In this document: positions 40,271 through 58,517 of the stretch, piece by piece
Layout: every line of letters starts with the position of its first letter
Position numbering within the stretch: position 1 is the first letter of the stretch
Assembly (NCBI RefSeq): GCF_041248615.1
Contig: NZ_CP158426.1
Direction: 5' to 3' (one strand)
DNA: 64,000 bases
From: Escherichia coli
GTDB taxonomy: Bacteria; Pseudomonadota; Gammaproteobacteria; Enterobacterales; Enterobacteriaceae
Notes under the pieces: model-generated
Databases searched by the model: none
What the model was told of the DNA's origin: nothing
What the model saw: only the letters and a program-made list of their open reading frames with translations
Made by a program: the position numbers and the translations under genes

Positions 40271-41956
40271 GTGAATATAAACGTCGCCGAATTGTTAAAT
40301 GGGAATTACATTCTGTTATTATTTGTGGTCCTCGCGCTTGGGCTATGTCTCGGGAAATTACGACTTGGTTCGATCCAACTGGGTAATTCCATTGGCGTTT
40401 TAGTCGTATCGCTGTTATTAGGCCAACAACATTTCAGCATTAACACCGACGCGCTTAATCTTGGCTTTATGCTGTTTATTTTCTGCGTCGGGGTCGAAGC
40501 CGGACCGAACTTTTTTTCCATTTTTTTTCGCGATGGGAAAAATTACCTAATGTTAGCACTGGTGATGGTTGGCAGTGCGCTGGCCATCGCCTTAGGGTTA
40601 GGTAAGCTGTTTGGCTGGGATATTGGCCTGACGGCCGGTATGTTAGCAGGCTCTATGACGTCAACACCGGTTCTGGTCGGTGCTGGCGATACACTGCGTC
40701 ATTCCGGCATGGAAAGCAGGCAGCTCTCACTGGCACTGGATAATCTGAGCCTCGGGTATGCCTTAACCTATTTAATCGGTCTGGTGAGTTTGATTGTTGG
40801 TGCGCGTTACTTGCCGAAATTGCAGCATCAGGACTTACAGACCAGCGCCCAGCAAATCGCCCGCGAACGTGGCCTGGACACAGATGCCAACCGTAAGGTT
40901 TATTTGCCGGTGATCCGCGCCTACCGCGTCGGCCCGGAGCTGGTAGCCTGGACCGACGGCAAAAATCTGCGTGAACTGGGTATTTATCGACAAACCGGCT
41001 GCTACATTGAACGTATTCGGCGTAACGGGATTCTGGCAAATCCAGACGGTGATGCCGTGCTACAAATGGGCGATGAAATAGCGTTGGTAGGCTACCCCGA
41101 CGCCCACGCCCGACTCGATCCCAGTTTCCGTAATGGCAAAGAAGTTTTCGATCGTGACCTTCTCGACATGCGTATCGTCACTGAAGAAGTGGTCGTTAAA
41201 AACCATAACGCTGTTGGCAAACGCCTGGCACAACTGAAGTTGACCGATCACGGTTGCTTCCTTAACCGCGTCATACGTAGCCAGATTGAGATGCCGATTG
41301 ATGACAACGTCGTGCTTAACAAAGGTGACGTTTTACAAGTCAGCGGCGATGCCCGCCGCGTAAAAACCATCGCCGATCGCATCGGCTTTATCTCGATTCA
41401 CAGCCAGGTCACTGACTTGCTGGCATTCTGCGCCTTCTTTGTTATTGGGCTGATGATCGGGATGATCACCTTCCAGTTCAGCACATTCAGTTTCGGCATG
41501 GGGAACGCTGCCGGGTTGTTATTCGCCGGAATTATGCTGGGCTTTATGCGTGCTAACCACCCGACCTTCGGTTACATTCCGCAGGGTGCATTAAGCATGG
41601 TGAAGGAGTTCGGCTTGATGGTGTTTATGGCAGGCGTTGGTCTGAGCGCTGGTAGCGGTATTAATAACGGCCTGGGCGCGATTGGCGGTCAGATGTTGAT
41701 TGCCGGATTGATTGTCAGTCTGGTGCCAGTGGTTATCTGCTTCTTGTTCGGTGCTTATGTATTGCGAATGAACCGCGCACTGTTGTTCGGCGCAATGATG
41801 GGCGCACGCACCTGCGCGCCGGCAATGGAGATCATCAGTGATACAGCTCGCAGTAACATCCCGGCGCTGGGCTATGCGGGCACCTACGCAATCGCCAACG
41901 TCCTGCTGACGCTGGCAGGGACAATCATCGTCATGGTATGGCCAGGATTAGGATAA
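40271..41956 (+). CDS. ybjL: Putative AAE-family transporter YbjL (two TrkA-C domains)
   Basis: 561-aa [39 protein letters not shown]... Confidence 0.93.
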
Positions 41957-41999
41957 AACTGAAGTTGCCCTGAAAATGAAATTTTTTTGCACAACCGCA

Positions 42000-42027
42000 G
42001 AACTTTTCCGCAGGGCATCAGTCTTAA
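42000..42027 (+). promoter_or_regulatory. Candidate sigma-E promoter of rybB
   Basis: GAACTT (-35-like) about 16 bp upstream of TCTTAA (-10-like), ending ~6 bp before the sRNA 5' end. Confidence 0.5.
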
Positions 42028-42032
42028 TTAGT

Positions 42033-42111
42033 GCCACTGCTTTTCTTTGATGTCCCCATTTTGTGGAGCCCATCAACCCCGCCATTTCGGTTCAAGGTTG
42101 GTGGGTTTTTT
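42033..42111 (+). ncRNA. rybB: RybB small RNA (sigma-E-dependent)
   Basis: GCCACTGCTTTTCTTTGATGTCCCCATTTTGTGGAGCCCATCAACCCCGCCATTTCGGTTCAAGGTTGGTGGGTTTTTT matches recalled RybB nearly base for base; lies downstream of ybjL as in K-12. Confidence 0.8.
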
Positions 42112-42191
42112 GTTGCCTGAAATTTATGCCTTTTAAAATCATGATATTAGAAGCACTGTTTTTTAACGATGGCGACAAAATGGCGGCAGCG

Positions 42192-42407
42192 TCAAAGAGA
42201 GAGCGCCACCTGTCCTGATTTCATTGGATGCGGCTGAACCGGATTTGACTCTTTTGGCGTTGCAATCGAACGAACAAAAGTTTCATGGGTAACAAAAGTA
42301 TGGCTGCAGTTAATGTTCTGGCACTGGTTGTAACGCTCTTTGGTCAATGAAGATACCTGAAAACTGCTGCGAGTATGGGCGGCACTTCCACACAGTGGGC
42401 AAATCAT
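42192..42407 (-). CDS. ogr: Ogr-type zinc-finger late transcription activator
   Basis: ~71 aa with CPLC...CQNINC zinc-finger spacing, similar to recalled P2 Ogr; start codon uncertain (ORF runs to 42443). Confidence 0.8.
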   Translation of the reverse strand: MICPLCGSAAHTRSSFQVSSLTKERYNQCQNINCSHTFVTHETFVRSIATPKESNPVQPHPMKSGQVALSL

Positions 42408-42500
42408 CATTTTTCGAGTTCTCCCCATTTTTGCTAAATTCACAATAATGATACCGCATTATTCCATTTTGCAAACTTAAAAGTTCTCCATTGCGAAGAA

Positions 42501-43601
42501 TCATTCCATTTCGAAATCATCAATCCTCACTTCAAGCTCCAGACTGGTCGTAAAACCGTTATCCGGGCTGACGGTATGTGTCAGAGTCGTAATGGTCCAT
42601 TCCGCATCATCTATCGGCTGTTTAAAACCACTGACTTTCACTGGCATTTCCGTGTAGAGATCTGCCCGACCTTCCGCCAGTTGTAGCGAGAATGACGCAA
42701 CGCCGCGTTGCAGGCGTTCCCACTGCATTTTCGCTGCCCGTTCAGCGTTGCTCCGGTTGGCATAAGTGCGATTAAGTACCAGCACGTTTTCATCTGTACC
42801 CACCAGGTAATCGCCCTGCTTCGCTTCCGGCTCTTTCTTCTGCTTCTTAGTTCTGCGCTTACGCTTCACCGTTGTGCTTTCTTTCTTCGCGGGTTCGCGG
42901 GTATGCAACCAGCTGGCAATTACGCCCGTGTAGGCTCCGCGATCTGCCAGGGTAAATCGGTGACTGTCGCCGTCCTTGCGTGTGATAGTGATCACTGGCA
43001 GTGGTTTACCAGTGGCGCTTTTGCCCAGCCCCTGCCGGATGAATAACAGATTGCCATTTTTCACCGACGCGATGGCACCGTACTGTCGCGCCAGCCGCAT
43101 CAGAAAACTGCCGTCACTCTCATTAGTCTGGTCTATATGCTCCACGGGCTTATCCGACAGGTCTTTACCCAGTGCCATCTTCAGCTTGTGCCGCGCGGCT
43201 ATTTCCTTCACCACCTCCCCGATGGTGGCGTTATGCCACGATTTTTCACGGCGGGTATTCAGGGTTTCCCGAAAATCAGCACTTCGCGCCCGGATAGTCA
43301 GGCGGTCCGGTGCGCCAGTGTGTTCAATCTCGTCCACCGTGAATGCCCCTTTCGGGAAAAGCTGCTGCCCCTTCCAGCCCAGCGCCAGCGTAATGACCGC
43401 ACCACGGCGCGGCAGCGCTATTTTTCCATCGGCGTCGTCCAGCTCCAGATCAAGCTGGTCCGCTTCAAAGCCCCGGTTATCCGTCAGCGTCAGCCTCATC
43501 AGGCGGTTATCCAGCACAGTGGTGATATCCCTGCCCTCAATACTGATGTTGAATGCGGGAGTTTTGTTGCCTTTGCTAAGCAGTTCAGAGCTGAAATTCA
43601 C
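42501..43601 (-). CDS. P2 gpD-like tail protein
   Basis: 366-aa ORF at the position of P2 gene D (after U, before ogr). Confidence 0.8.
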   Translation of the reverse strand: MNFSSELLSKGNKTPAFNISIEGRDITTVLDNRLMRLTLTDNRGFEADQLDLELDDADGKIALPRRGAVITLALGWKGQQLFPKGAFTVDEIEHTGAPDRLTIRARSADFRETLNTRREKSWHNATIGEVVKEIAARHKLKMALGKDLSDKPVEHIDQTNESDGSFLMRLARQYGAIASVKNGNLLFIRQGLGKSATGKPLPVITITRKDGDSHRFTLADRGAYTGVIASWLHTREPAKKESTTVKRKRRTKKQKKEPEAKQGDYLVGTDENVLVLNRTYANRSNAERAAKMQWERLQRGVASFSLQLAEGRADLYTEMPVKVSGFKQPIDDAEWTITTLTHTVSPDNGFTTSLELEVRIDDFEME

Positions 43602-44083
43602 GACAGCAGCCCTCCCACCGTTTTACTGATATCACTTAAGGCAGATGTTGCCGTGTCCTGCAGATTATTCAGTTGCGTACTGAGATCACCGAACATATCG
43701 GACAGGGATTCATCCACCCGTTTGAGCGACAGGGTGAACTCAATCCGGCGCGGCATACCGTCGCGGAAAAACTCCGTTTTAGTCAGATTCAGTCCCTCAA
43801 TCACATACATGCCGTAAATCGTGCCGCTGCCTTCAATCAGGGGCCATGCTTTTCCCTGTTCTGCCATCTGCTCCAGAGCCAGCAACGACAGCCTGCCGCC
43901 CGTTATCTCCGGCATAAGAACACCAGAAAGCGTCAGCATGTCGTTGTCCGGTCCCAGAAACTGCGTGGACGGACGACGGTTTACCCGGCTGTTTGCCGCA
44001 TGTCGCCAGCTGCGTTGATACTGCAGTTCCTGATACGGAACGGTGCGCAGCATAAACACGTACAATCCCAGCACCATCATCAT
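43598..44083 (-). CDS. P2 gpU-like tail protein
   Basis: 161-aa ORF between T and D, overlapping both by 4 bp. Confidence 0.8.
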   Translation of the reverse strand: MMMVLGLYVFMLRTVPYQELQYQRSWRHAANSRVNRRPSTQFLGPDNDMLTLSGVLMPEITGGRLSLLALEQMAEQGKAWPLIEGSGTIYGMYVIEGLNLTKTEFFRDGMPRRIEFTLSLKRVDESLSDMFGDLSTQLNNLQDTATSALSDISKTVGGLLS

Positions 44084-47000
44084 GCGTCGTATCCCCCCTG
44101 ATCGCTGTAGTTACTCCTGGCTTTTGCCTTCAGCCTGCGTTCACGTTCATCAAGCTGGCGGGCCACCTCCCGCGCAATATCCTGCGCACTTTGTCCTGGC
44201 TGCGTCTGAATGATGATCTGCGTCGGTGCCTCAATCCGTTGAACGGGCGGCACAGTGGCTGCACGACTCACCATCGCTTCGCCGCCTTTCGCGGGAAGTG
44301 CCAAAGGATGTAACGGTGGAAGCTCTGCTGGCGCGGCAGCAACACCCATCATTCCGGCGACAACGGCAGCCAGTGCAGCTGTATTTCTCCGGCTGGTCAC
44401 GTTTGCCGGGCCGTTAACAATTTCCGGCCCGTTTTCACCAACGATGCCAAACTGCCCGCGCGGGATATAGCCGCCGCTGTCATACATCCCCGCAAAGCCA
44501 TATCCCCATGACGGAAAACCACCCGATGGCATCATCACTTTACCGTCTGCATTCACCGTCGCAGGTTGCTGACGCGTCACGCTTTCCGGCAGTTTCGCCT
44601 TTGCAGCCTCTTTACTGACAATACCGAGTTTCTCCAGCAACCAGGAAACGCCGGATTTCAGGGAGTCCAACGGATGCATGACCATATTCAGCCCTTCCGC
44701 CAGTGCCTCCCCGAATCGTCGCCCCATTGCCGCTGCGCTCTGCAGTTCGGCAGAGGTCGACTTAACAGGCGTCAGCAGATCAGTAAACCAGCCCCACAAC
44801 GCCTGTACTTTGTCGCCAATCCACTGGAACACGGGCTTAAGCGGTTCGAATGCAGCACTGATGGGACCTGCCGCCGCTTTGAATCCTTCCACCACGCCAC
44901 CGAGAAATGCGGTGATGGGTTGCCAGTATTTCCAGACAACCAGCGCCACGCCCGCCAGTGCAGTAAACACAAGACCTATCGGACTGAGCAGAGCACCTAA
45001 CAGACCAGATACGGCATACAGGGCAACGCGCAGCATCGCCAGCGGACCGGATGCCAGCACACGCAGCACCGCGCCTGCGGCAGCCAGTCCACCGCGTAGT
45101 GCTGCCAGTGGATTCATAAACATCACAGCAACCGCACGTAAACCGGATAATCCAGACCGCAAAAGTGCAACCGGCGCACCTGCTACAGTTTTCATGACAT
45201 TTCCCGTCAGTGATGCCGTGCGGCGCAAAGATGACAACGGTGCAGTAAGTAAACCCGCAGCGTTGCCCGATGAAGCAAGCCCGCGTCGCAGCAGTACCAG
45301 TGGTGCGCCAGCCAGCCAGGACAACGCGCTGCTGGTTCGAGTTAATGCTGCCGTAACGGAAGGTAACGTTTTGATACCCAGCACAGAGAATCCCAGACGG
45401 ATCACTGCCAGCGGCCCCAGCACTGCAGCCAGCGCCACCGCTAAGGTGCCGAGGCCGACGGTAACCGCAGCCACAACAGCCGATGCTTTCATCAGTGTGC
45501 CTGTCAGTTCTGGGTTAGCTTCCACCCAGCGACGCAACGCCCCCGTGACGCTTTTCACCGTGTACAGAATATCCATCAGCGGCTGGCGCAGCGTTTCGCC
45601 CAGGCTGCTGAAGGTGTTCTGCGCTCCGGTTTTGACCAGCAACCACTGCGCAGAAAGTGAATCCTTGTTAATGTCGGATTCTTTCTGCATGGAGCCGAGC
45701 GCATCATTGCCCGCTGTCAGTTTTAACTGACGCTGCAGTTCCGGCAGGTTGTTTGCCAGTTTCGCCGCGTCATCGCCAAACTCTTTACCAAACAACATAG
45801 TCATGGCAGACAGGCGCTTGTCCTGCGGCAGCGCGTTCACCTTCTCCAGCACGCGCTGGATGGTTCCCATCGCATCCTTCGTCATCTGCTTTTCAATCAC
45901 TTCAGGATTGAGTTTCAGCAGATTCATCCCTTCAAAGAAACTCTTGCTTTGCATGGTGGCAATGGACAATTCACGCACCATCGCGTTTGCTGCACTGGCT
46001 GCAACCTCCGGCGCAGCACCCAGAGTCAGGAAGGTGGAACCCAGCGCCGCCGCTTTACGATAATCCAGACGGTCAGCCACACCGCCCAGACGTTGCATAA
46101 CATCGATGATGTCTGCCCCTTTCGACATTGCGTTATCATCCAGATAGTTCAGCGCATCACCGAGCTGTTCAATATTGCGGGTAGGTATTTTGTAGAGCTG
46201 GGCGATTTTTCCCAGACTTTCTGACAGTTCATCCGCTGGCAGCTCAAAGGCTGTTGCCGCCTTTGCTGCCGTGCTGGCGAAGGCCAGCAGGTCACGTTTC
46301 TGGTCTTCCCAGCTGTCGTCAGGGTTTGCGACGTTCATGCGCGCACCACCTTCAACCAGTGCGGCGAAGTCCACAGCACCGTTTTCCATCGGCAACTGTT
46401 CGCTGGCAGCCTTGATGGCATCCTGCATTTCATAAAAACGTGCAGTACGGTTTCCATTATCGTCACGCAGACCATTGACCTGCTTTGCCACACCTTTCAT
46501 GGCATCTTCCATGCTGGTATAGCTTTTTACTGCCGCCATCACTGGCGTCCCCATTGCCAGCCCTGCAGCCGTGGTAGTGGCTCCAGCTCCTGCAATACGA
46601 TCGCGCACCTCCAGCGAACGGGCATAACTGGCACGCGCTGCATTCATCCTGCGCTGAGCTTCCCCCAGTCGCTTCAGCCGCGCCTCCTGTTTCGACAGTT
46701 CCTGGTTATAACGTGATGTTTCACGGGCTAAACGGGCAGTTGCTCCCGCATCATCTTTCGCAGAAATTCCCGCCCGGTACAGTTCTGCACGCACAAGCGC
46801 CGTTTGCTTCTGCAAATATTTTTGTTGTTCTTCCAGGCGTTGGACTGCCAGCGTTTGCCGACCTAAAGCCACAAGGTGCCGTTGTGATGGTTGTTCCATC
46901 GCCTCCAGCTCAGAGCTAAGCAAATTAGCCTTCTGTCTGGCATAGTTCAGCCTGTCGCCTAACTTCTTGTTATCGGCCTGCAGCTTGCGAAATTTTTCCA

Positions 47001-47157
47001 GGCTGTTACCCGCCTGATTGAGTTGCTTTAATGCGTCACGGGAGTTTCTGATTGCGCCAGCCAGCTCTTTCGAACTGGCCTGTGCAGCACGGAATGGGCG
47101 GGTGAGTTTGTCAACCGCATTAAGAATGACCTGCAGCCGCAGGTTATTATTACTCAT
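44080..47157 (-). CDS. Tail tape-measure protein (P2 gpT-like)
   Basis: 1025-aa Ala/Gly-rich coiled-coil protein downstream of the E/E' pair. Confidence 0.85.
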   Translation of the reverse strand: MSNNNLRLQVILNAVDKLTRPFRAAQASSKELAGAIRNSRDALKQLNQAGNSLEKFRKLQADNKKLGDRLNYARQKANLLSSELEAMEQPSQRHLVALGRQTLAVQRLEEQQKYLQKQTALVRAELYRAGISAKDDAGATARLARETSRYNQELSKQEARLKRLGEAQRRMNAARASYARSLEVRDRIAGAGATTTAAGLAMGTPVMAAVKSYTSMEDAMKGVAKQVNGLRDDNGNRTARFYEMQDAIKAASEQLPMENGAVDFAALVEGGARMNVANPDDSWEDQKRDLLAFASTAAKAATAFELPADELSESLGKIAQLYKIPTRNIEQLGDALNYLDDNAMSKGADIIDVMQRLGGVADRLDYRKAAALGSTFLTLGAAPEVAASAANAMVRELSIATMQSKSFFEGMNLLKLNPEVIEKQMTKDAMGTIQRVLEKVNALPQDKRLSAMTMLFGKEFGDDAAKLANNLPELQRQLKLTAGNDALGSMQKESDINKDSLSAQWLLVKTGAQNTFSSLGETLRQPLMDILYTVKSVTGALRRWVEANPELTGTLMKASAVVAAVTVGLGTLAVALAAVLGPLAVIRLGFSVLGIKTLPSVTAALTRTSSALSWLAGAPLVLLRRGLASSGNAAGLLTAPLSSLRRTASLTGNVMKTVAGAPVALLRSGLSGLRAVAVMFMNPLAALRGGLAAAGAVLRVLASGPLAMLRVALYAVSGLLGALLSPIGLVFTALAGVALVVWKYWQPITAFLGGVVEGFKAAAGPISAAFEPLKPVFQWIGDKVQALWGWFTDLLTPVKSTSAELQSAAAMGRRFGEALAEGLNMVMHPLDSLKSGVSWLLEKLGIVSKEAAKAKLPESVTRQQPATVNADGKVMMPSGGFPSWGYGFAGMYDSGGYIPRGQFGIVGENGPEIVNGPANVTSRRNTAALAAVVAGMMGVAAAPAELPPLHPLALPAKGGEAMVSRAATVPPVQRIEAPTQIIIQTQPGQSAQDIAREVARQLDERERRLKAKARSNYSDQGGYDA

Positions 47158-47586
47158 CGTTGGCCCCGCTTCTCTGAATCGCTTTATACCGCCATTCCAG
47201 CACTTCGGTCAGCGGCATAACGTCAGTAACGGATGGCGGCCAGTGAAAAATGGTGGCGATATCTGCCACCAGAGCGTCAACCGTCAGGCTGTCGGTAAAC
47301 CGGCAAGCACCGACTTCTTCAACAAAAAAGTGACAACCTCAACCGACATAGCTGTGAGATCTGCCGGGTCCATCTCTGCGATTTCCTGTGCAGTCAGTGC
47401 CGGACTGGAAATGCGGGGGATCACGGTCATCATCGCGTTCACATCCATATCCATAATGGCCTGCAGGCGTGTACCGCGCAGCGCACCGGACTGCGGTTTA
47501 CGCAACACAATTTCGGTAATTTCTGTTTTACCGCGCATGATGGGGGTATCCAGTTGAATGGTCTTTTCAGTCTGCTTATCGCTCAT
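47150..47586 (-). CDS. gpE' extended tail chaperone made by -1 programmed frameshift
   Basis: Slippery TTTTTTG (minus strand, 47324-47330); -1 frame stays open ~52 codons (FFVEEVGACRFTDSLTVDALVADIATIFHWPPSVTDVMPLTEVLEWRYKAIQRSGANDE) and stops at 47150-47152, overlapping the T start. Confidence 0.7.
47284..47586 (-). CDS. Tail assembly chaperone (P2 gpE-like)
   Basis: 100-aa ORF ending just after a TTTTTTG slippery heptamer. Confidence 0.8.
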   Translation of the reverse strand: MSDKQTEKTIQLDTPIMRGKTEITEIVLRKPQSGALRGTRLQAIMDMDVNAMMTVIPRISSPALTAQEIAEMDPADLTAMSVEVVTFLLKKSVLAGLPTA

Positions 47587-47640
47587 TTTATTGTCCTGTA
47601 AATTGGGTTCTGGCGCGGTATCCCGCGCCGTTCAGATACA

Positions 47641-48156
47641 TCAGAGGCCGAGGGCGTTGCGGTGCGCTTCCATCAGGTCCACACCGTCCACAATTTCCAC
47701 CATGTTGATAAGGTCCACTTCATAGAGCACCTCACCATTGATAGTCAGCTTCGCGTAGCTGTTGGTACTGGTCACTTTGGTGGTGTTGCTTTCGCCCGTC
47801 TTCCACTCACCGGAATCCACTTCTTTGTGACGTCCGCGCACCACAAGCTCCACGGCCTGCACTTCCCCGGTATCGTCACGCTGGATAGAGCCGGTAAAGC
47901 GCAGCTGGATGCCATCCACCGTGGCTTTGCCCATCTGCTTAAACAGCAGCAGTTCAGTACCACCAATGGAAAATTCTGTATCCAGTGCACTGTCATCCAG
48001 TCCCAGATCCACATCCACCGCCCCCGGCATTCCGCCGCCGCGATACTTCTCATATTTGCGGGTGAATTTCGGCAGCGTCAGCGACTCAACGATCCCCTGC
48101 CAGTTATTCCCGTCGTTAAACAGGTTCAGGTGTTTTAATTTACGTGGTAAAGCCAT
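47641..48156 (-). CDS. Tail tube protein (P2 gpFII-like)
   Basis: 171-aa ORF directly downstream of the sheath gene. Confidence 0.85.
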   Translation of the reverse strand: MALPRKLKHLNLFNDGNNWQGIVESLTLPKFTRKYEKYRGGGMPGAVDVDLGLDDSALDTEFSIGGTELLLFKQMGKATVDGIQLRFTGSIQRDDTGEVQAVELVVRGRHKEVDSGEWKTGESNTTKVTSTNSYAKLTINGEVLYEVDLINMVEIVDGVDLMEAHRNALGL

Positions 48157-48165
48157 GTTGTCCCC

Positions 48166-49338
48166 TTACGCGCTGACCTGGCTGGCGAAATTCACCAGGT
48201 ACTGATCGGTGATGCGCTGACGCAGCATCAGGTTTTCAAGTGGTGGCACTGGCGTGTAGTCGTAATCGATGGTGAGTTTTCCGGCTTTCAGAGTGTCTTT
48301 GTCGTTCACCGACTCATCCAGCCAGCAATCGCCACCAATGAGATAGCCCTGACTGACCAGGCTGCGCATTTTGGCGCGGATACCTTCGATAATGTCCCGG
48401 GCCAGCGACGGGTTAAGCGGTTTATCCACCGCCCACATGTGTGCTTCTGCCATCGTGTCCATCAGCACCTGCGCCGTGCGGGTGTAGTTTTCGAAGGCAA
48501 AGAGCGGGTCATCACTCAGGCAGCGGGAACCCCAGAAGCGGAAACCGTCTTTGCGGATAAGGGTGGTGACGTCGTTCTGGTTCAGCAGACCTGCATCGGT
48601 TGCCGGGTCCTGCAGATCCCAGAACACATCTGCAGAAATTCCGGTGACACCGTTCACGCCCACGTTGGACAGGCTTTTGTGCCACCCAGTCTGCTCATCA
48701 ATTTTGGCACGCAGACCAAGCGCACGGGCGGTGGCATATGCCGTTGCTTCGGCATTCAGCACCGTGTCCCAGCCAGTAAAGTCGGGCCAGATCAGCATTC
48801 CTTCGCGCTGGCTGAAGTTTTCACGGTAAGTGATCGCCTCCTGCACCGTCTTGCAGCCATACGCTGACAGGTAAGCAAACCCACGCAGGCTTTGCGCCAC
48901 ACTCAGCAACTCAGTAGCAACGGCTTTGTTATCGTGACCTGGCACGCCGAGAATGCGCGGTTTAACGCCGAGCTGTGTCTGGGCAGATAACAGGGCTTTC
49001 ATGCCTGTTTTTTTACCTTCAGCAGTCACTGCGCCGATGATATTGGTCGTGGTTTCTTCTTCCGCTTCACCCTGCGGCACACGCACAACAACGGTCACGG
49101 GTTTTGCCTGGTCAGCGATGGCGTCCAGCGAACGGGCCAGCGTACCGGACTCACCCGCTTTACCGCTGGCAGTCAGCACATCAGTGATCAGCACTGGTTT
49201 ATTAAGAGGAAACATTTTTGCATCGGCATCATCGCCCGTGCAGACCATACCCACGATGGCGGTGCTCACCGTGGTAATGGATCGGGTGCCTTCGTTGACT
49301 TCAACAACGCGCACCCCGTGGTGGTAATCCTGAGCCAT
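48166..49338 (-). CDS. Contractile tail sheath protein (P2 gpFI-like)
   Basis: 390-aa [35 protein letters not shown]... Confidence 0.9.
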
Positions 49339-49414
49339 AGTGGCGAACCTCCTGATTGGATTAGGCTTCGCCCTATGTTGAAGTGATTGTGCCTGACAAA
49401 CAGCTAAGCGCAGT

Positions 49415-49432
49415 TGTACCGTTATTCACACA
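49415..49432. promoter_or_regulatory. Candidate Ogr-dependent late promoter element (TGT-N12-ACA) upstream of the sheath gene
   Basis: TGTACCGTTATTCACACAA, ~85 bp upstream of the FI start; shares TGTA...CACACAA with the dyads at 55472 and 61922. Confidence 0.55.
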
Positions 49433-49480
49433 AAATGACGGTATTTGTCTGCTTGCAGGGATAATCAAAATTATGCTGAT

Positions 49481-50047
49481 TCAGGGGGATTCATTGCTCT
49501 TATTTGCCGGAAATTTTCTATAAATGGTAGAAACGCCTACATCAAAAATCAGTGCAATACGCTGTCTTGATTCTCCGGCCTCGAGTAAACGTCCAATCTG
49601 TGCCCACTGTTCAGTGGTCAACTTAGGACGGCGTCCACCTACTCTGCCTTTAGCACGAGCTGCAGCCAGCCCTGCCCTGGTACGTTCAACTATCAGTTCG
49701 CGTTCCATTTCAGCCAGGGCACCCATGACATGAAAAAAGAAACGGCCCATTGGGGTACTGGTATCAATACTGTCAGTCAGGCTTCGGAAATTCACACCAC
49801 GCTGGCGCAACTCTTCTATCAGCGTAACAAGATGCCGCATACTGCGCCCCAACCTGTCCAGCTTCCAGACAACCAGCGTGTCTCCTGCCGATAGTGTCCT
49901 GAGCAGCTTTTTCAGCCCCGGTCTGTCGGACTTGGTGCCACTGATTTTATCCTCAAAAATCCGCTCACATCCCGCACAGTTCAGTGCATTGCGTTGCAAA
50001 TCGGTGTTCTGGTCATTTGTTGACACGCGTACATAGCCAATAAGCAT
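49481..50047 (-). CDS. Pin/Gin/Hin-family serine DNA invertase
   Basis: MLIGYVRVSTNDQNTDLQRNALNCAGCE...VWKLDRLGRSMRHL...; catalytic Ser in VRVSTNDQ; close to recalled e14 Pin and Mu Gin. Confidence 0.9.
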   Translation of the reverse strand: MLIGYVRVSTNDQNTDLQRNALNCAGCERIFEDKISGTKSDRPGLKKLLRTLSAGDTLVVWKLDRLGRSMRHLVTLIEELRQRGVNFRSLTDSIDTSTPMGRFFFHVMGALAEMERELIVERTRAGLAAARAKGRVGGRRPKLTTEQWAQIGRLLEAGESRQRIALIFDVGVSTIYRKFPANKSNESP

Positions 50048-50102
50048 GATCAATCCCCTGAATAAAAACCAGGGATGATGCCAGTTAGCTGTTACCTCTG
50101 CA

Positions 50103-50128
50103 TTTTCTTAAACGTTGGTTTGGGAGAA
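50103..50128. other. Invertase crossover site (pix/gix-like), invertase-proximal
   Basis: TTTTCTTAAACG-TT-GGTTTGGGAGAA, two 12-bp half-sites around a 2-bp core, ~56 bp upstream of the invertase start; the GGTTTGGGAGAA half is identical to the site in H in inverted orientation. Confidence 0.7.
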
Positions 50129-50572
50129 GGTGCTCCAGCTATTGGTGTTCCGTTCTTCTGGCCGTCCGCTGCAATGCCAGATACCGTAATCGAAAGCTGG
50201 TCCGGCATGGTGTTTTTGAAGTTCAACGGCGCGAAATTCTCTGCCACTGATTACCCTGTGCTGGCGAAAGTGTTTCCTTCGCTGGTATTACCTGAAGCCC
50301 GCGGTGATTTCATTCGTATCTGGGATGACGGGCGAGGGGCGGACAGTGGACGAGCATTATTAAGCTGGCAGGCAGCAACATCTTTATCGCAATTTGGAGG
50401 TAATTATCCAGAGGGGTCCGGCCATTCGATTGCTAATCACGATGGAATATCAGCACACGAGCCGGGTTTCTCTCGATACCATTACACCAGTAATTCAGTG
50501 GGTGATGGTGTGAATTTTATAGCCGTCAGACCACGTAACATCGCATTTAACTTTCTGGTGAGGGCTAAATAA
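50129..50572 (+). CDS. Start-less alternative tail-fibre C-terminal segment (Sv'), expressed only after inversion
   Basis: Frame continues in phase from the crossover site; encodes GAPAIGVPFFWPS...LPEARGDFIRIWDDGRGADSGRALLSWQ..., a typical tail-fibre receptor-binding C-terminus. Confidence 0.7.
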   Translation, partial: GAPAIGVPFFWPSAAMPDTVIESWSGMVFLKFNGAKFSATDYPVLAKVFPSLVLPEARGDFIRIWDDGRGADSGRALLSWQAATSLSQFGGNYPEGSGHSIANHDGISAHEPGFSRYHYTSNSVGDGVNFIAVRPRNIAFNFLVRAK

Positions 50573-51165
50573 TGAAACCTGTTTTTGATAAAAATGGGCT
50601 GGCTACAGTGCCGGGCGATATGCGTTGTTTTTATTATGATGCTGAAACATCTGAGTATACGGGCTGGTCTGATGAATATATTAATACTGGCGTAAGTATG
50701 CCCGCCTGTTCCACTGGAATTGACCCTGGCGAAAACATTCCGGGAAGAGTGGCAGTATTTACAGGTAAGGGATGGAGCCATGAAGAAGACCATCGCAATG
50801 AGACTGTTTACTCAATCGAAAATGGTGCTGCTGTTACAGTGGATTATATCGGTGCCATCAAAAACGGTTATGTCACGCTTTCACCGTTAACGCCATATGA
50901 TAAATGGGATGGTAAGAAATGGGTGACAGATACTGAGGCACAACACGGTGCCGCAGTAGAAGCGGCAGAAGCACAGCGCCAGTCACTGATTGATGCAGCA
51001 ATGGCTTCCATTAGTCTGATTCAGCTGAAATTACAGGCCGGACGTAAACTGACGCAGGCAGAAACAACCAGACTTAACGCTGTGCTGGATTACATTGACG
51101 CGGTGACGGCAACAGATACCAGCACCGCGCCGGATGTCATCTGGCCTGAACTGCCGGAGGCGTAG
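50572..51165 (+). CDS. Tail fibre assembly protein, cognate to Sv'
   Basis: 197-aa ORF MKPVFDKNG... with Tfa-type C-terminus (AVLDYIDAVTATDTSTAPDVIWPELP). Confidence 0.8.
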   Translation: MKPVFDKNGLATVPGDMRCFYYDAETSEYTGWSDEYINTGVSMPACSTGIDPGENIPGRVAVFTGKGWSHEEDHRNETVYSIENGAAVTVDYIGAIKNGYVTLSPLTPYDKWDGKKWVTDTEAQHGAAVEAAEAQRQSLIDAAMASISLIQLKLQAGRKLTQAETTRLNAVLDYIDAVTATDTSTAPDVIWPELPEA

Positions 51166-51577
51166 GCCATTCAATATCTGGAGCACTGGAGGTATCAACC
51201 AGTTCCAGTGCGTCCAGATAATCCAGCCACAAATTATATTGCGCCAGTTCCTCACCTTTCAGACGACCAATAGCCGCTTTACCAGGCCATTGTTTACTGT
51301 TCATATAATCGTTGGCCTGATTAATCAATTGCTGCTTCTCCAATTCGGCTGCAGCAATTTGTTCCTCATGTGTTGGTGGTGGAATTTCAGACCATGCAGG
51401 AAAACCATTTTCTCCAGCGATACGGATTTTTCCTTTCGGCGGTAATCCGGAAAACTCAATATACACTTGCTCATCAACTTCAACAGCATCATCTGGCCAT
51501 GAGTCAGCTTGAGTGTAATCCTCTTTCATCTCCAGCGGATAGAAAGAGTTTGTAGTCGCGGAATATATGTAATTCAT
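51137..51577 (-). CDS. Tail fibre assembly protein, cognate to the currently expressed fibre tip
   Basis: 146-aa ORF with Tfa-type C-terminus (LWLDYLDALELVDTSSAPDIEWPTPP); converges on and overlaps the other tfa by 29 bp. Confidence 0.8.
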   Translation of the reverse strand: MNYIYSATTNSFYPLEMKEDYTQADSWPDDAVEVDEQVYIEFSGLPPKGKIRIAGENGFPAWSEIPPPTHEEQIAAAELEKQQLINQANDYMNSKQWPGKAAIGRLKGEELAQYNLWLDYLDALELVDTSSAPDIEWPTPPAVQAR

Positions 51578-51598
51578 TTTTCACTCCATATAGCTAAA

Positions 51599-52999
51599 TT
51601 AACAGCCTAACGCTAAAAATGAAGCGCCGAGGCCAGGAGTACTGGCTCTGGATATAAATTTAACCGGGTCGGGACTAAAACCTGCACAGGCAATATAACC
51701 AACAGCCCCGCTATCTGGTGTGTAGTCTTGTGAGACCAAAACACGCAGACATCTGTTTGGAAATGCAATCGGGAAATGGGTTACTACATCCTGTGCAATG
51801 CCTGGTGCGCCGATTGAGCCCCACTGAAGAATAAAACCTGATGGTAATTTTTGATATCCAGTACCTGAAACAGAAAGCGTGAAGCTACCCATATCAGGTA
51901 TCTGATTCGCCCCTGTCCCTACATTCCTTTTAGCCGCTTCTCCCAAACCAAGGTATGTGAGAAGACCAGCTACATCCTTTCCACTCAAATTGGTAAGCGT
52001 ATTGTCCAGCGGTTGTTTACCTGACAGCGCATTAAGCATTGTCGTGGCAAAGTTCGGATCATTCCCCAGCGCCGCTGCCAGTTCGTTCAGCGTATCCAGT
52101 GCCGCAGGTGCAGAACCCACCATTGCTGCAATCGCCGATTTCACAAAAGCCGTGGTGGCAATCTGTGTATTGTTGACCGACTGTGCCGCAGTAGGTGCTG
52201 TTGGCGTTCCGGTAAGTGCCGGACTCGACAGTGGCGCTTTTAGTTCCAGCGCATTGTTAATGGTGGTGCTGAATTTGGGGTCATTGTTTATGGCCGCGGC
52301 TATTTCTTTCAGCGTGTCCAGCGTGGCTGGCGCACCATTAATAAGAGCCGTCAGTGCCGCCTGAACAAACGCGGTGGTCGCAAGTTGCGTGGTATTATTC
52401 CCCGCCGCTGGCGTTGGTGCTTTGGGGGTTCCGGTAAACGTCGGGCTGGCTTTTGGCGCGTACTGTGAATGCGGGTCCAGTGCGGCAAGATGTTTTGCCA
52501 TCAGATCATCCGCGTACACCTTCAGCTCCAGTGCCTTGTCATCCACATACTTGCGGGTTGCCAGCACTACAGCAGGGTCGATTTTCAGGGTGATATTGTC
52601 CGTGCTGCTGGTAATCAGCACCATGCGCACGGTCTGAGTGCGCCCGCTACCTTCAGCCAGTTGCGGCTTATAGCTTTCCGGGCAGTTGCCCACGGCAATC
52701 AATGCCCCTGACTCATCAAACAAGCCCACTTCACGTATCCACCAACCGCCCTCGTTTTCAGGGATCACCTGTTCGGCAATAATCTGACTGCTGTTCTGCG
52801 GGTCGATATAGAGCATATTCAGCGCAGCCCGGCGTTTCTCATTTACCAGTGCAGTCTGCTTTGAGTCTGGCGTTGGCAATGCTCCGCCGCCATCGCCCAC
52901 CGCCATATGGGTAATTTTTAGCGGCACACCGAGCGCGGCGGCGCTGGCAAGTTTCGCCGCGCCAATATCCGTCAGCAGGGTATAAAATTTTGTGCTCAT
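51599..52999 (-). CDS. Tail fibre protein (P2 gpH-like), constant N-terminus fused in current orientation to variable tip Sv
   Basis: 466-aa ORF; crossover site lies in-frame at codons ~346-354 (YLGLGE). Confidence 0.85.
51938..51963. other. Invertase crossover site (pix/gix-like) inside the tail fibre gene
   Basis: TTCTCCCAAACC-AA-GGTATGTGAGAA on + strand; shares 14/14 TTCTCCCAAACCAA with the reverse complement of the site at 50103-50128. Confidence 0.7.
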
Positions 53000-53601
53000 G
53001 GATTCACTCTCATTGTGTCAATAACATGGACCGCCCCGCCTTCATGCGCGGTGCCGCCGGAAATAATTGTTTCGTTGATATACGGATAGATCGTGATTTC
53101 TTCGCCAAGATAGCTGGCGGCTCCCACCCAATGCGGGCCGCTGGTCTGCAGGTTGATGGACATGCCGATCATGTGACGGCTACATGGTTTGGCATCGCTT
53201 ATCAGTCGCTCAAGTTCCAGATAGGTATCTTCAGTGATGCCCTGGTCCTGCACGCCGATATCCAGACGAAACGTGCCCGGTGCCTCTCCGGTCTGCCACC
53301 ACTCAATAATGCGGATCAGAAAGCCGAACGGCTCCACCACCCGCCGCACGGCACTGGTGGTCCCTTTATGCTGATGAACATAAAAAGCATCCTTCACCAC
53401 CTGGCGCTTGACGCTTTCTGTCCAGCCCTCGTCCCAGCGATCCACAGAGAACGCCCAGGCGAGATAAGGCAGGAAACTGATCGGACAGGTTGCCGGGTTC
53501 CACAAGTCACGCAGCGGCACCTGCAGATCAGAAATCCCGCTGCAGGTTTGCGCCAGTCGGCGCTCCAGTAGTGTTGAACCCGGTGGCAGCAGACTATTCA
53601 T
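52996..53601 (-). CDS. Baseplate assembly protein (P2 gpI-like)
   Basis: 201-aa ORF in P2 order between J and H. Confidence 0.8.
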
Positions 53602-54502
53602 CCGTTCCTCCGTTGGTTACGCTCCACTGCGTACATGATGCCGCCTGTGTTTTGTTCAGGACCACATCCGCCAGCGGTGAAGCCAGCTCCACACGCTGCA
53701 CTCCCTCAACATGCAGGGCGGCAAAGATGGCGCTACGGCGAATATCCCGACCAAGCCGCGTCTGACTGGCGATGTACTTCTGCAGGCTGGCTTTTGCCGC
53801 TGCCATTACCGGCTCTGCTTCCGGTCCCGGATAGAGAAAAATGGTGGCTTCCACGCGATACGGGATGATTTCTGCGCTGCGAACCGTAAGACGGTCAGCC
53901 ACCGGGCGGACGTTCTCACTGTTCAGAGCTTTTTCCACCACGTCCAGCAGGTCTTTTTCTGCAGTTCCATCGCCTTCGCGGCTAAGGACAGTCAGCACCA
54001 CCTCTGCAGGTGCCGGGCTGGTTGCACTGGCATCCGCCACCCGACCGTCGGCGCTTCGGGCATGAAATTCATAAGCTGCAGTTGGCCCCGCAACTGAAAG
54101 CCCTTCAAAGGCTGCAGGCACACGCAGGCGTAACGCTTCATCGCTTTCCATCACAGCTGCAACGGGCGGCACAGCGTCATTATCAGCAGGCGTCACCGTC
54201 AGGCGTTTTACGTTGTAGTTGGCAGCGAGCTGGTCAAGATCGCTGCCCATCGCGTAAGCCGCCATCACAGCCTGCGCGGCTTCGTTAATGCGCTGGCGCA
54301 GAAGCAACTCACGGTAAGCGTTCTCCTGCAGCAATTTGGTGACGGGTTCAGATTCCAGTTCCAGCGTGCGGATCACTGCTTCCTGCTCATCTTTCGGATG
54401 AAGCGCCACAAATTCGGCCTTGCGTTCGGCAAGCAGCGTCTCAAAGTCCGGCACATCCACAATCTGCGGCGCAGGCAACTGCGAAAGGTCAATCACTGCC
54501 AT
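53594..54502 (-). CDS. Baseplate assembly protein (P2 gpJ-like)
   Basis: ORF 53594-54541; start placed at MAVIDLSQLPAPQIV. Confidence 0.8.
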   Translation of the reverse strand: MAVIDLSQLPAPQIVDVPDFETLLAERKAEFVALHPKDEQEAVIRTLELESEPVTKLLQENAYRELLLRQRINEAAQAVMAAYAMGSDLDQLAANYNVKRLTVTPADNDAVPPVAAVMESDEALRLRVPAAFEGLSVAGPTAAYEFHARSADGRVADASATSPAPAEVVLTVLSREGDGTAEKDLLDVVEKALNSENVRPVADRLTVRSAEIIPYRVEATIFLYPGPEAEPVMAAAKASLQKYIASQTRLGRDIRRSAIFAALHVEGVQRVELASPLADVVLNKTQAASCTQWSVTNGGTDE

Positions 54503-54848
54503 TCTCTGCTCCTGTTGATACGGAAAGGGAAACAGGCACACCGTTATTACGCCGCCCGCTCAGCGCCACCACCATTGAACCGTCAAAATTGCTGTTGATG
54601 GTGATGGAATCCAGCGTCATCCGTGGCTCCCAGCGACTCAGTGCCACATACACAGCCGACATGACCTGCAGGCGTAACGCCGGATTTTGTGGCTGATCTA
54701 TTAAAGCCGACAGCAGGGAACCATATTCCCGGCGGGCAATGCGGCTACCCTGCGGTGTCAGCAGAATGTCCCGCACCGACTGGCGCAGATGGTCAATATC
54801 AGTAATAGCTTTACCGCTGGTATTGTTCATCCCGATATAAAGCGTCAT
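54489..54848 (-). CDS. Baseplate protein (P2 gpW-like)
   Basis: 119-aa ORF between V and J. Confidence 0.8.
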   Translation of the reverse strand: MTLYIGMNNTSGKAITDIDHLRQSVRDILLTPQGSRIARREYGSLLSALIDQPQNPALRLQVMSAVYVALSRWEPRMTLDSITINSNFDGSMVVALSGRRNNGVPVSLSVSTGAENGSD

Positions 54849-55423
54849 ACCGGGCCTCCGGTTGTGTCGCCGCCTTTCAGGACGCCAGTATGCTGATGCG
54901 CATCAACCACGATCCCGTTAGAACTCATTGCACCGCCACCCTGGGTAACGCCACCATTGATCACCACTTCGCTGTTAATACGCGTGCGGTCAGCCTCCAG
55001 CACAAACTCACTGGTTTTCAGGGTGATGTTGTCGGCAGCCTCAATGACCATGGATTTGATGCCCCTGACATACCAGCGCCCGGTGGCGGGTTCGTATTCA
55101 AACCAGCCACCATCAGGATGTTCTGTCACGCAGGCTTCCGCCGACGTTGACGGCGGTGCGAACTGATTCGAATAGATGGCGGGCAACGCAAAGGCGGTTT
55201 CCAGATTGCCACCCAGGCTGAACAGCACAACCTGCTCGCCCACAGACGGTTTCCACCAGGTGCGCGATTTGCCCGCGCGCAGTGTCAGCCAGTTAATCCA
55301 GTTGGTTTCAAGGTCGCCCGTTTTCACCCGGCAAAGCCAGTTCTCCCGGTCCACCTCGGTGACTACACCAGTGCGGATCAGGTTGGTGATAAGGCGCATG
55401 ATTTCAGTCAGTTGTGCATTCAT
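54845..55423 (-). CDS. Baseplate spike protein (P2 gpV-like)
   Basis: ORF 54845-55501; start placed at MNAQLTEIMRLITNLIRTGVV by similarity to recalled P2 V. Confidence 0.8.
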   Translation of the reverse strand: MNAQLTEIMRLITNLIRTGVVTEVDRENWLCRVKTGDLETNWINWLTLRAGKSRTWWKPSVGEQVVLFSLGGNLETAFALPAIYSNQFAPPSTSAEACVTEHPDGGWFEYEPATGRWYVRGIKSMVIEAADNITLKTSEFVLEADRTRINSEVVINGGVTQGGGAMSSNGIVVDAHQHTGVLKGGDTTGGPV

Positions 55424-55471
55424 GAGAGCGATCCTTGCACAACCGGGTAGAGTGATGTAATACAGAGCGTA

Positions 55472-55489
55472 TGTATGGAGAACCACACA
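55472..55489. promoter_or_regulatory. Candidate Ogr-dependent late promoter element (TGT-N12-ACA) upstream of V
   Basis: TGTATGGAGAACCACACAA, ~55 bp upstream of the V start. Confidence 0.5.
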
Positions 55490-55518
55490 AAAGAGAAACA
55501 ATTTCTAAGGTATTTAAG

Positions 55519-56385: not shown

Positions 56386-56411
56386 ACTAAATTTTATAAA
56401 TGTGGTTTTAT

Positions 56412-58318: not shown

Positions 58319-58514
58319 AGTCCTCCCGCGAGATCTGCCCGTCGCGCAGAAGCTGGTAGGCTTTGTGTTTGTAGTACCAGTTGATAGCCAGCATCAGCAC
58401 ACCAATCATCAGGCCGCCCAGCGTTGAGGCATCCTTGATGGACAAATCGCCCAGCCAGGCCAGCACGACGGCGATGCAATACGTGATAAAGGCGCTGATT
58501 CGCTCAAGCGTCAT
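58299..58514 (-). CDS. Holin (two predicted TM segments, 71 aa)
   Basis: Small ORF immediately upstream of the endolysin with hydrophobic stretches ITYCIAVVLAWLG and LGGLMIGVLMLAINWYY. Confidence 0.65.
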   Translation of the reverse strand: MTLERISAFITYCIAVVLAWLGDLSIKDASTLGGLMIGVLMLAINWYYKHKAYQLLRDGQISREDYESINR

Positions 58515-58517
58515 AAT

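What the first reader, a model, noticed from the sequence alone, without database searches (positions are those of the whole stretch)
41985..42191. Prophage junction lies within ~80 bp of the 3' end of the RybB sRNA
A sequence matching recalled RybB (42033-42111), with a plausible sigma-E promoter, lies downstream of ybjL as in K-12. In K-12, as recalled, rcdA follows; here the next gene is phage ogr (stop at 42192), so the prophage end and its attachment core must lie in 42112-42191. The element may target the rybB 3' flank much as other integrases target tRNA or tmRNA 3' ends. The other prophage end is outside the window, so the core cannot be defined here.
Basis: partly seen in the sequence, partly recalled or inferred. 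Interest (0 to 1): 0.45.

Follow-up and report, generated by a model that had tools for sequence, protein, structure and literature searches.

The report
P2-like prophage inserted in rybB
A P2/186-type prophage sits in the last few bases of the small-RNA gene rybB and rebuilds that gene exactly; this is real, but it is a common and already published integration site in E. coli and Klebsiella.

Summary
RybB is at 42033/42036-42114 (+) (Rfam RF00110, 104 bits), downstream of ybjL and with a promoter region identical to K-12. The next gene is phage ogr (42192-42410, -), followed by the P2 late genes.

The core is not confined to 42112-42191. It is a 26-27-bp imperfect repeat at 42101/2-42127 whose invariant part, TGGGTTTTTTGTT (42102-42114), is the 3' stem end and U-tail of RybB. 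Comparing 3 empty sites, 6 attPs and more than 10 lysogens puts strand exchange inside this 13-mer, so RybB is regenerated unchanged. Positions 42128-42191 are phage arm DNA and hold a tandem Int arm-type site (42167-42188) homologous to those of phage 186.

The other end lies 12.4 kb beyond the window. In the source genome (E. coli NRZ14408) it reads int, core, then rcdA, and the prophage is 34.3 kb.

About 20% of 5426 complete E. coli genomes carry such a prophage at this site. The site is already published (Archer 2011; Hudson 2014; Hochhauser 2023), and the GenBank record of Klebsiella phage 4LV2017 already annotates the core. Verdict: already known, low interest.

The parts
40271..41956 (+). 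ybjL (aspartate:alanine antiporter), the chromosomal gene upstream of rybB
   Evidence: ORF list; RefSeq annotation of the identical genome stretch
41999..42026 (+). sigma-E-type promoter of rybB (-35 GAACTT at 42000-42005, 16-nt spacer, -10 TCTTA at 42022-42026, start at 42033)
   Evidence: Read from the sequence. The stretch 41957-42100 is identical to K-12. The match to the sigma-E consensus rests on established knowledge and was not tested here.
42033..42114 (+). rybB sRNA gene (Rfam alignment 42036-42114; terminator hairpin 42067-42107, then the U-tract)
   Evidence: RF00110, 104.1 bits, E = 2.5e-20. Fold -24.6 kcal/mol, with the same structure as K-12 at -25.2.
42102..42114 (.). Invariant 13-mer TGGGTTTTTTGTT, the inferred strand-exchange region. 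It forms the last 6 paired nt of the RybB terminator stem plus the U-tail.
   Evidence: Identical in every attB, attP and junction examined. It occurs once in the window, with 0.12 expected by chance, and exactly twice in the lysogen locus, 34,336 bp apart.
42101..42127 (.). Extended att core: a 26-27-bp imperfect direct repeat. Its right block 42115-42127 (GCCTGAAATTTAT) is of phage origin at this junction.
   Evidence: Homology to empty sites ends at 42127 and homology to attP starts at 42102. In NRZ14408 the two junction copies differ at 42115, 42116 and 42119.
42128..42191 (.). Phage att arm on the ogr side (the P arm in P2 nomenclature). It has an IHF-like site AATCATGATATTA at 42137-42149 and a tandem Int arm-type site CGATGGCGACA / AAATGGCGGCA at 42167-42188.
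   Evidence: Absent from empty sites. The tandem motif occurs once in the window, with 0.05 expected. It occurs once per arm in every att-bearing locus and in no empty site, and it matches the 186 arm-type consensus and spacing. The IHF-like match is relaxed, with one mismatch to the consensus.
42192..42410 (-). ogr (late-gene activator, Ogr/Delta zinc finger), the last gene of the prophage
   Evidence: RefSeq annotation; Pfam PF04606, E = 5e-22
42501..64000 (-). Body of the P2-like prophage: gpD, U, tape measure, E/E', tube, sheath, invertase and invertible fibre segment, baseplate, lysis, head and terminase genes. It continues 12.4 kb beyond the window to int.
   Evidence: Annotation of NZ_LT599825.1, which is 100% identical to the window apart from one inverted 1.84-kb segment

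Best explanation
Window 42102-42127 is the ogr-proximal attachment junction of a 34.3-kb P2/186-type (Peduoviridae) prophage. The phage integrated by tyrosine-integrase site-specific recombination into the 3' end of the sigma-E-dependent sRNA gene rybB.

The phage attP carries a copy of the last 13 nt of rybB (TGGGTTTTTTGTT: the 3' end of the terminator stem plus the U-tail), followed by up to 13 more bp that resemble the host sequence downstream. Strand exchange occurs inside the 13-mer. The rybB-side junction therefore regenerates a complete RybB with its terminator and Hfq-binding U-tail. The int-side junction, next to rcdA, keeps the phage's own small hairpin, whose 3' half is that same 13-mer and which probably terminates int.

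The 64 bp between the core and the ogr stop are the phage att arm, with a tandem Int arm-type site and probably an IHF site. The second arm-type pair overlaps the 3' end of int.

Shown here: the sequence anatomy, the homology limits, the census and the family relationships. Inferred: the position of exchange, the protein-binding roles, the function of the int terminator, and that RybB expression is unaffected.
For: RybB, ogr and the P2 late genes are identified.

The source genome NRZ14408 is 100% identical to the window. It shows the other end as int (350 aa), core, then rcdA, with the 13-mer at L001 positions 2271 and 36607.

Empty sites in K-12, O157:H7 and BH100N read rybB, core, rcdA, with homology to the window ending at 42127.

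Six independent attPs (KP12, ESSI2_ev040, ev129, IMG/VR L016, L017 and L024) share the 13-mer and all carry G[C/T]CTG-type right blocks, never ATCTA.

In Klebsiella phage 4LV2017 the identity between attL and attR is limited to ATGGGTTTTTTGTTGCCTG, and in ev040 identity to attB ends after GCCTG. Exchange therefore lies in the first 18-19 bp.

In lysogens of ATCTA-type hosts (NRZ14408, E. coli B, CFSAN061762, 813R9, L019-L021, L023) the two junctions differ from 42115 onward. Exchange is therefore to the left of 42115.

Int-side blocks follow the host flank allele, not the type of phage left arm.

The integrase has Int_N and Phage_integrase domains. It is 54% identical to 186 Int and 36% to P2 Int.

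Arm-type sites RARTGGCGR, in tandem at 11-bp spacing, lie at -118/-107 and +65/+76 from the core. In 186 the annotated arm sites lie at -117/-106.

The phage hairpin AACCCRTTT-N4-AARTGGGTT followed by UUUU folds at -9 to -9.6 kcal/mol in three lineages. All variants seen keep pairing through wobble changes.

The RybB fold is the same as in K-12.

1104 of 5426 complete E. coli genomes have ogr next to rybB.

Published statements of the same site were found.
Against: No experiment was done. The cleavage positions are inferred from junction comparisons only.

One of my own predictions failed. The ogr-side block variant of MS8345 (GCCTAAAAT) also occurs next to the chromosomal flank in 270 genomes, so block alleles are shared between the host and phage pools, and single lysogens cannot locate the exchange by themselves.

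The hairpin shows only one-sided (wobble) changes and no compensatory pairs, and its z-score is about -2. The simple terminator scan did not flag it.

The IHF-like site has a mismatch to the consensus.

Inducibility of this prophage was not tested.
Confidence: 0.88

Rival explanations
1. One reading: the att core lies wholly downstream of RybB, somewhere in 42112-42191. The phage would then target the rybB 3' flank and not the gene.
For: Phage-only DNA does start downstream of the RNA, at 42128. If RybB is taken to end at 42111, the right half of the core (42112-42127) lies in the flank.
Against: attP homology begins at 42102, inside the terminator stem. The only segment invariant in all sites is 42102-42114. 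Positions 42128-42191 are absent from empty sites and hold arm-type sites, not a core. Hudson 2014 also describes the Klebsiella island as lying 'precisely within the gene'.
Confidence: 0.04
2. Exchange occurs at the right end of the 26-bp core (around AAATTTAT, 42120-42127). The 42115-42123 block at this junction would then be host DNA, and the ATCTA block at the int side would be phage DNA.
For: O157-type empty sites carry exactly GCCTGAAATTTAT next to the chromosomal flank. GCCTAAAAT also occurs next to that flank, in 270 genomes. On their own, NRZ14408 and MS8345 fit either model.
Against: No attP among the six carries ATCTA. In Klebsiella 4LV2017, ev040 and ev129 the phage/host identity ends at or just after GCCTG, which leaves no homology for a right-end exchange, and their integrases are 85-95% identical to this one. 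Int-side blocks follow host flank alleles across three different phage left arms.
Confidence: 0.07
3. The element is a decayed, immobile remnant, and the junction is a fossil with no current recombination function.
For: RefSeq marks two tail-fibre fragments as pseudogenes. E. coli B carries a clearly deleted version at the same site.
Against: In this strain the full P2 gene set, int, CI/CII, both arm-site pairs and both core copies are intact over 34.3 kb. The 'pseudogenes' sit at the borders of the invertible fibre segment, which differs in orientation between the window and the RefSeq assembly, so the invertase is active. Near-identical att modules occur in virion-derived genomes.
Confidence: 0.1

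Closest known systems
rybB-integrated P2-like prophages: Rybb*W, Rybb*B and Rybb*Cr (Archer 2011, PMC3032704); island Kpn38RybB (Hudson 2014, PMC4048246); E. coli defence hotspot #29 with Felsduovirus prophages (Hochhauser 2023, PMC10121019); Klebsiella phage 4LV2017 (KY271398)
   Same: Same target gene, same orientation (ybjL, rybB, ogr ... int, rcdA) and same core. The att annotated in 4LV2017, ATGGGTTTTTTGTTGCCTG, contains the 13-mer. The integrases are 94-95% identical. E. coli B has the same junctions.
   Different: Only the cargo and the allelic detail differ. This copy carries a RES-domain protein plus a KAP-NTPase (PDC-S49) where B carries retron Ec86. It lacks the 0.5-kb insert between int and the arm sites, and its RybB has G instead of A at 42101, which is a host polymorphism.
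[quoted passage not shown]
   Same: It has the closest characterised integrase (54% identity). The arm-type consensus is the same (RARTGGCGR, in tandem at 11-bp spacing) and lies at nearly the same distance from the core. The phage carries a copy of the 3' end of an RNA gene, and the exchange lies at the int-proximal end of the shared segment.
   Different: The target is an sRNA terminator, not a tRNA. The shared segment is 26 bp here and 36 bp in 186. Here the RNA gene ends up at the ogr/B side, co-directional with int; in 186 the restored tRNA is at the int side. In 186 the terminator of the lysogenic operon lies beyond the core; here the hairpin overlaps it.
Phage P2 attP, and P2 integration at the cyaR (ryeE) sRNA locus
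   Same: The module order is the same: ogr, arm, IHF, core, excisionase sites, then an arm overlapping the int 3' end. Like this phage, P2 uses an sRNA locus as its site (Archer 2011 Table 2; Bobay 2013 citing Wassarman 2001).
   Different: The integrases are only 36% identical. The P2 core AAAAAATAAGCCCGTGTAAGGGAGATT is unrelated. P2 has a dedicated terminator after ogr, and none was found here.
tRNA/tmRNA 3'-end-targeting integrases in general (Williams 2002)
   Same: The logic is the same: the target is a conserved, structured 3' end of a stable RNA gene, and the element carries a replacement copy so that the gene survives integration.
   Different: The target is neither a tRNA nor a tmRNA (ARAGORN finds none here). 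The duplicated piece is a Rho-independent terminator half plus its U-tract.

Membership tests
RybB sRNA (Rfam RF00110) | Covariance-model score above the gathering threshold over the full model | tested here: met
   104.1 bits against 40, model positions 1-79 of 79, E = 2.5e-20
RybB sRNA (Rfam RF00110) | Conserved locus downstream of ybjL, with a sigma-E promoter and a Rho-independent terminator with a U-tail | tested here: met
   Synteny. The promoter region is identical to K-12. The terminator fold is the same as in K-12. Use of the promoter by sigma-E was not tested.
P2-like (Peduoviridae) prophage integrated at rybB | P2-type gene set with ogr at one end and int at the other | tested here: met
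   Annotation of the identical genome; Pfam hits for Ogr_Delta and the integrase; best DNA matches are to Peduoviridae records
P2-like (Peduoviridae) prophage integrated at rybB | Direct repeat of the core at both ends, flanked by rybB and rcdA, with the site empty in other strains | tested here: met
   13-mer at L001 positions 2271 and 36607; empty sites L002, L009 and L010; 1104 of 5426 genomes occupied
Heterobivalent tyrosine integrase system of the P2/186 Int type | Tyrosine recombinase catalytic domain plus an N-terminal domain | tested here: met
   PF00589 (E = 1.2e-20) and PF24624 Int_N (E = 7e-31). The motifs GARWRE, HVLRHT and HHDIKMTMRYAH are visible in the sequence. 54% identity to 186 Int.
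Heterobivalent tyrosine integrase system of the P2/186 Int type | Arm-type binding sites on both sides of the core | tested here: met
   Tandem TGGCGRCA at fixed offsets in all attPs, even where the arms are otherwise unrelated. They match the annotated 186 consensus and geometry. This is sequence-level evidence; binding was not tested.
Heterobivalent tyrosine integrase system of the P2/186 Int type | Accessory sites for IHF and an excisionase (Cox/Apl) | tested here: inconclusive
   A relaxed IHF match at 42137-42149. Two AACTTATTGTTTT repeats at -52/-33 on the int side, in the position of the P2 Cox and 186 Apl sites. No binding data.
Heterobivalent tyrosine integrase system of the P2/186 Int type | Demonstrated Int-dependent integration and excision with mapped cleavage sites | not testable with these tools
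   Only comparative inference is available
tRNA/tmRNA-targeting integrative elements | attB lies within a tRNA or tmRNA gene | tested here: not met
   ARAGORN finds a single tRNA in the window, at 1337-1424, and none near 42100. The target is RybB. The system works like this class but is not a member of it.

The most novel reading that the evidence does not exclude
The att core may be more than a docking sequence. Three possibilities remain open.

(a) The phage uses the same 13 nt as the 3' half of its own int terminator. Integration would then be a terminator-for-terminator swap that leaves both RybB and int properly terminated.

(b) The 13-bp block just downstream (42115-42127) exists as at least four alleles shared between the host and phage pools. 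K-12 and the window differ at four clustered positions within 9 bp, and at only one other position, the 42101 polymorphism, in the remaining ~160 bp of intergenic sequence compared. Occupancy also looks unequal: roughly 29% of ATCTA-type hosts are lysogens, compared with a clearly lower fraction of GCCTG-type hosts that I could not count exactly. This could reflect repeated exchange of att sequence between phage and host, or an effect of the allele on lysogen stability.

(c) No terminator follows ogr. Late transcription in an induced lysogen could therefore read antisense through rybB and damp the sigma-E envelope-stress sRNA response during lysis.
Probability: 0.2. Interest if true: 0.35.

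Novelty: already known. Interest (0 to 1): 0.14.

Why it matters
It matters mainly as a clean example for annotation. A very common E. coli and Klebsiella prophage site, occupied in about one complete genome in five, lies inside an sRNA gene, and the sRNA is rebuilt exactly, so RybB should still be annotated and is expected to function in lysogens. Prophage boundary callers that look only for tRNA or tmRNA targets will miss the true end by tens of bases. The nucleotide-level map given here (a 13-bp exchange region, a 26-bp core, 186-type arm sites) is a modest refinement of published knowledge. It could help in engineering this Int/att pair, or in designing PCR assays for occupancy and excision.

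Tried and rejected
1. I first took GCCTG to be 'phage-type' and ATCTA to be 'host-type' from the K-12 comparison alone. I rejected this when the 30-mer census found rybB+GCCTGAAAT in 2166 genomes, including empty O157:H7 sites.

2. I used lysogen MS8345 as a discriminating case and predicted that its ogr-side variant GCCTAAAAT would never adjoin the chromosomal flank. The prediction failed, with 270 genomes, so I dropped the argument. I replaced it with the Klebsiella and ev040 homology limits and with six attPs.

3. I asked whether the G at 42101 (a G-U pair instead of A-U in the RybB stem) is introduced by the phage. It is not. G occurs at 263 sites with a chromosomal-type right side, most likely empty (not individually inspected), and A occurs in lysogens such as E. 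coli B.

4. The simple terminator scan of 41900-42500 found nothing, not even the RybB terminator, because its loop rule is too strict. It is therefore uninformative for the terminators of int and ogr.

5. One literature query was too loose and returned only serine-integrase papers. Searches for rybB with attB and integrase returned nothing.

6. NCBIfam gave only sub-threshold Xer-type hits for the integrase, which did not help.

7. PADLOC and Pfam found nothing for the 288-aa plus-strand ORF in the tail region.

Full report
**1. What is at the coordinates**

Rfam's RybB model (RF00110) matches window 42036-42114 on the + strand at 104.1 bits, against a gathering score of 40, with E = 2.5e-20 over the full model. 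ybjL ends at 41956. From the ybjL stop to 42100 the window is identical to K-12. That stretch includes a sigma-E-like promoter read: GAACTT at 42000-05, a 16-nt spacer, TCTTA at 42022-26, and a start 6 nt later. The match to the sigma-E consensus rests on established knowledge and was not tested. The RNA folds as in K-12, at -24.6 against -25.2 kcal/mol, with the terminator hairpin at 42067-42107 followed by UUUUUUGUU.

The next gene is ogr at 42192-42410 on the - strand (Pfam Ogr_Delta, E = 5e-22). After it come gpD and the rest of a P2-type late region.

**2. Source genome and the missing end**

The window is 100% identical to E. coli NRZ14408 (NZ_LT599825.1), apart from one 1.84-kb segment that is inverted. 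In that genome the prophage runs from ogr to a 350-aa integrase and is followed directly by rcdA. The sequence TGGGTTTTTTGTT occurs exactly twice in that locus, 34,336 bp apart. The second copy would fall at about window position 76438, which is 12.4 kb past the window end.

**3. Delimiting the core**

Genomes without the prophage match the window only up to 42127. In K-12, O157:H7 and BH100N the rcdA stop codon lies 4 nt beyond that point. A permuted phage genome, Klebsiella phage KP12, matches from 42102 onward.

Lining up attB, attP and both junctions shows an invariant TGGGTTTTTTGTT at 42102-42114, followed by a variable 13-bp block that ends in TTAT at 42127. Phage-only DNA starts at 42128. 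The core therefore overlaps the last 6 paired bases of the RybB terminator stem and its U-tail.

**4. Where the strands are exchanged**

This took a detour. Compared with K-12, the window's block (GCCTGAAATTTAT) looked phage-derived and ATCTAAAAYTTAT looked host-derived. A 30-mer census then showed rybB+GCCTGAAAT in 2166 of 5426 genomes, and truly empty O157:H7 and BH100N sites carry that block. So attB is polymorphic.

I then predicted that the ogr-side variant of lysogen MS8345 (GCCTAAAAT) would never be joined to the chromosomal flank. That prediction failed, with 270 genomes.

The question was settled by other evidence:
- **(a) Homology limits.** In Klebsiella phage 4LV2017 the depositors' attL and attR share only ATGGGTTTTTTGTTGCCTG. 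In the virion-derived E. coli phages ESSI2_ev040 and ev129, identity to attB ends at or just after GCCTG. Exchange must therefore lie in the first 18-19 bp.
- **(b) attP blocks.** All six independent attPs (KP12, ev040, ev129, and IMG/VR loci L016, L017 and L024) carry G[C/T]CTG-type blocks, never ATCTA.
- **(c) Junction differences.** In lysogens of ATCTA-type hosts (NRZ14408, E. coli B, CFSAN061762, 813R9, L019-L021, L023) the two junctions differ from 42115 onward.
- **(d) Int-side blocks follow the host.** These blocks track the host flank allele across three different phage left arms. In addition, the L016/L017 phage lineage has GCCTGAATT in attP but ATCTAAAAT at the int-side junctions of L020 and L023.

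Together these place the exchange within 42102-42114. This is an inference from sequence comparison, not a mapped cleavage.

**5. What fills 42128-42191**

This stretch is the phage att arm. A tandem motif, CGATGGCGACA followed by AAATGGCGGCA, lies at 42167-42188. It occurs once in the window, with 0.05 expected by chance. It occurs exactly once per arm in every att-bearing locus and in none of the three empty sites. Its offsets are fixed even in phages whose arms are otherwise unrelated.

The annotated phage 186 genome lists Int arm-type sites with consensus YAYCGCCAYTY, whose reverse complement is RARTGGCGRTR. They are in tandem at 11-bp spacing, with the int-side pair at -117/-106 from the shared segment; here that pair lies at -118/-107. 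The int-side pair here overlaps the last codons of int, as the P' arm does in P2.

Two further features are tentative:
- A relaxed IHF-like match lies at 42137-42149.
- Two AACTTATTGTTTT repeats on the int side occupy the place of the P2 Cox and 186 Apl sites.

**6. The integrase**

It has the Int_N and Phage_integrase domains. It is 54% identical to 186 Int, 38% to WPhi Int and 36% to P2 Int. The 85-95% identical group consists of the phages that share this core. E. coli B and CFSAN061762 carry a 95%-identical allele, with a 0.5-kb insert holding a 110-aa ORF between the int body and the arm sites. That insert recalls Orf69 of 186.

**7. Mechanism**

The system works like the classical tRNA and tmRNA integrases. 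The phage carries a copy of the 3' end of a conserved structured RNA gene and recombines within it, so the gene is rebuilt. Here the duplicated piece is half of a Rho-independent terminator plus the U-tail, which I recall is needed for Hfq binding.

The sequence of RybB through 42114 owes nothing to the phage that the host did not already have. The G at 42101 is a host polymorphism: it occurs at 263 sites with a chromosomal-type right side, and lysogens such as E. coli B have A. RybB expression is therefore predicted to be unaffected, although this was not tested.

On the phage side, the same 13-mer forms the 3' half of a 9-bp hairpin followed by UUUU, located about 60-75 nt after the int stop codon. 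It folds at -9 to -9.6 kcal/mol with z about -2 in three lineages. All variants seen keep pairing through wobble changes. It is probably the int terminator, but the support is weak: there are no compensatory changes, and the simple scan did not flag it.

**8. Prior knowledge**

- Archer et al. 2011 list 'rybB ncRNA' as the insertion site of P2-type prophages in E. coli W, B and Crooks, and note that the B copy carries retron Ec86. I saw the retron genes in the B locus.
- Hudson et al. [quoted passage not shown]
- Hochhauser et al. [quoted passage not shown] They cite Bobay et al. 2013 on sRNA genes as phage targets.
- The 4LV2017 GenBank record annotates the core.

My census gives 1104 of 5426 complete genomes with ogr next to rybB.

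**9. Verdict**

This is a real and correctly spotted junction. The phenomenon is already known, so interest is low.

Some points remain unexplained. The attB block exists as several alleles that are shared with the phage pool and differ at clustered positions. Occupancy also appears to differ by allele: 884 lysogens against 2197 empty sites for ATCTAAAAC, and at least 114 lysogens for GCCTGAAAT hosts, whose empty sites are more numerous but could not be counted exactly. Strain phylogeny confounds this comparison.

Noticed in passing
window 1337-2003: tRNA-Ser(GGA) at 1337-1424 is followed by about three tandem 179-bp units. Each unit repeats the tRNA 3' end (ATCCCCCCCTCACCGCCA) and a terminator-like hairpin. 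Rfam calls one unit RtT, at its threshold (45.1 bits).
   Followed up: partly
window 2005-2092: An orphan mini CRISPR array: two 28-nt type I-F-like repeats with a 60-bp period and one spacer (Rfam CRISPR-DR4, 50 bits, at 2065-2092). I did not check for cas genes.
   Followed up: partly
window 49481-51963: An invertible tail-fibre segment of about 1.8 kb, bounded by 32-nt inverted repeats at 50103-50134 and 51932-51963. Beside it is a serine invertase (Resolvase + HTH_7) at 49481-50047 (-). The window holds the opposite orientation to the RefSeq assembly of the same strain, so the switch is active. RefSeq labels the border fragments as pseudogenes.
   Followed up: partly
window 55519-56385 (+): A 288-aa ORF on the opposite strand, lying between the baseplate V gene and the virion morphogenesis gene, with no Pfam or PADLOC hit. 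E. coli B has a DUF6216 gene in the same slot. It is probably a moron or cargo position.
   Followed up: partly
L001 25002-28411 (about 1-4.4 kb beyond the window's right end): The cargo slot next to the portal gene holds a RES-domain protein and a KAP-family P-loop NTPase that matches PADLOC candidate system PDC-S49 (E = 4e-156). The same slot holds retron Ec86/St85 in E. coli B, and RelA/SpoT, ParA and ComF genes in CFSAN061762.
   Followed up: partly
window 42115-42127 and the equivalent positions in L002, L009, L010 and L011: The 13 bp just downstream of the exchange region exist as at least four host alleles: ATCTAAAAC, ATCTAAAAT, GCCTGAAAT and GCCTAAAAT. Some of these also circulate in phage attPs. 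K-12 and the window differ at four positions within 9 bp, and at only one other position (42101) in the rest of the compared stretch. Occupancy seems higher in ATCTA-type hosts, but phylogeny was not controlled.
   Followed up: partly
L007 (E. coli B) and L008 (CFSAN061762), between int and the arm-type sites: A 0.5-kb insertion with a 110-aa ORF separates the int body from the arm-type sites. It removes the last 14 Int residues, which in NRZ14408 are encoded by the arm-type site itself. The position is analogous to Orf69 of phage 186.
   Followed up: partly
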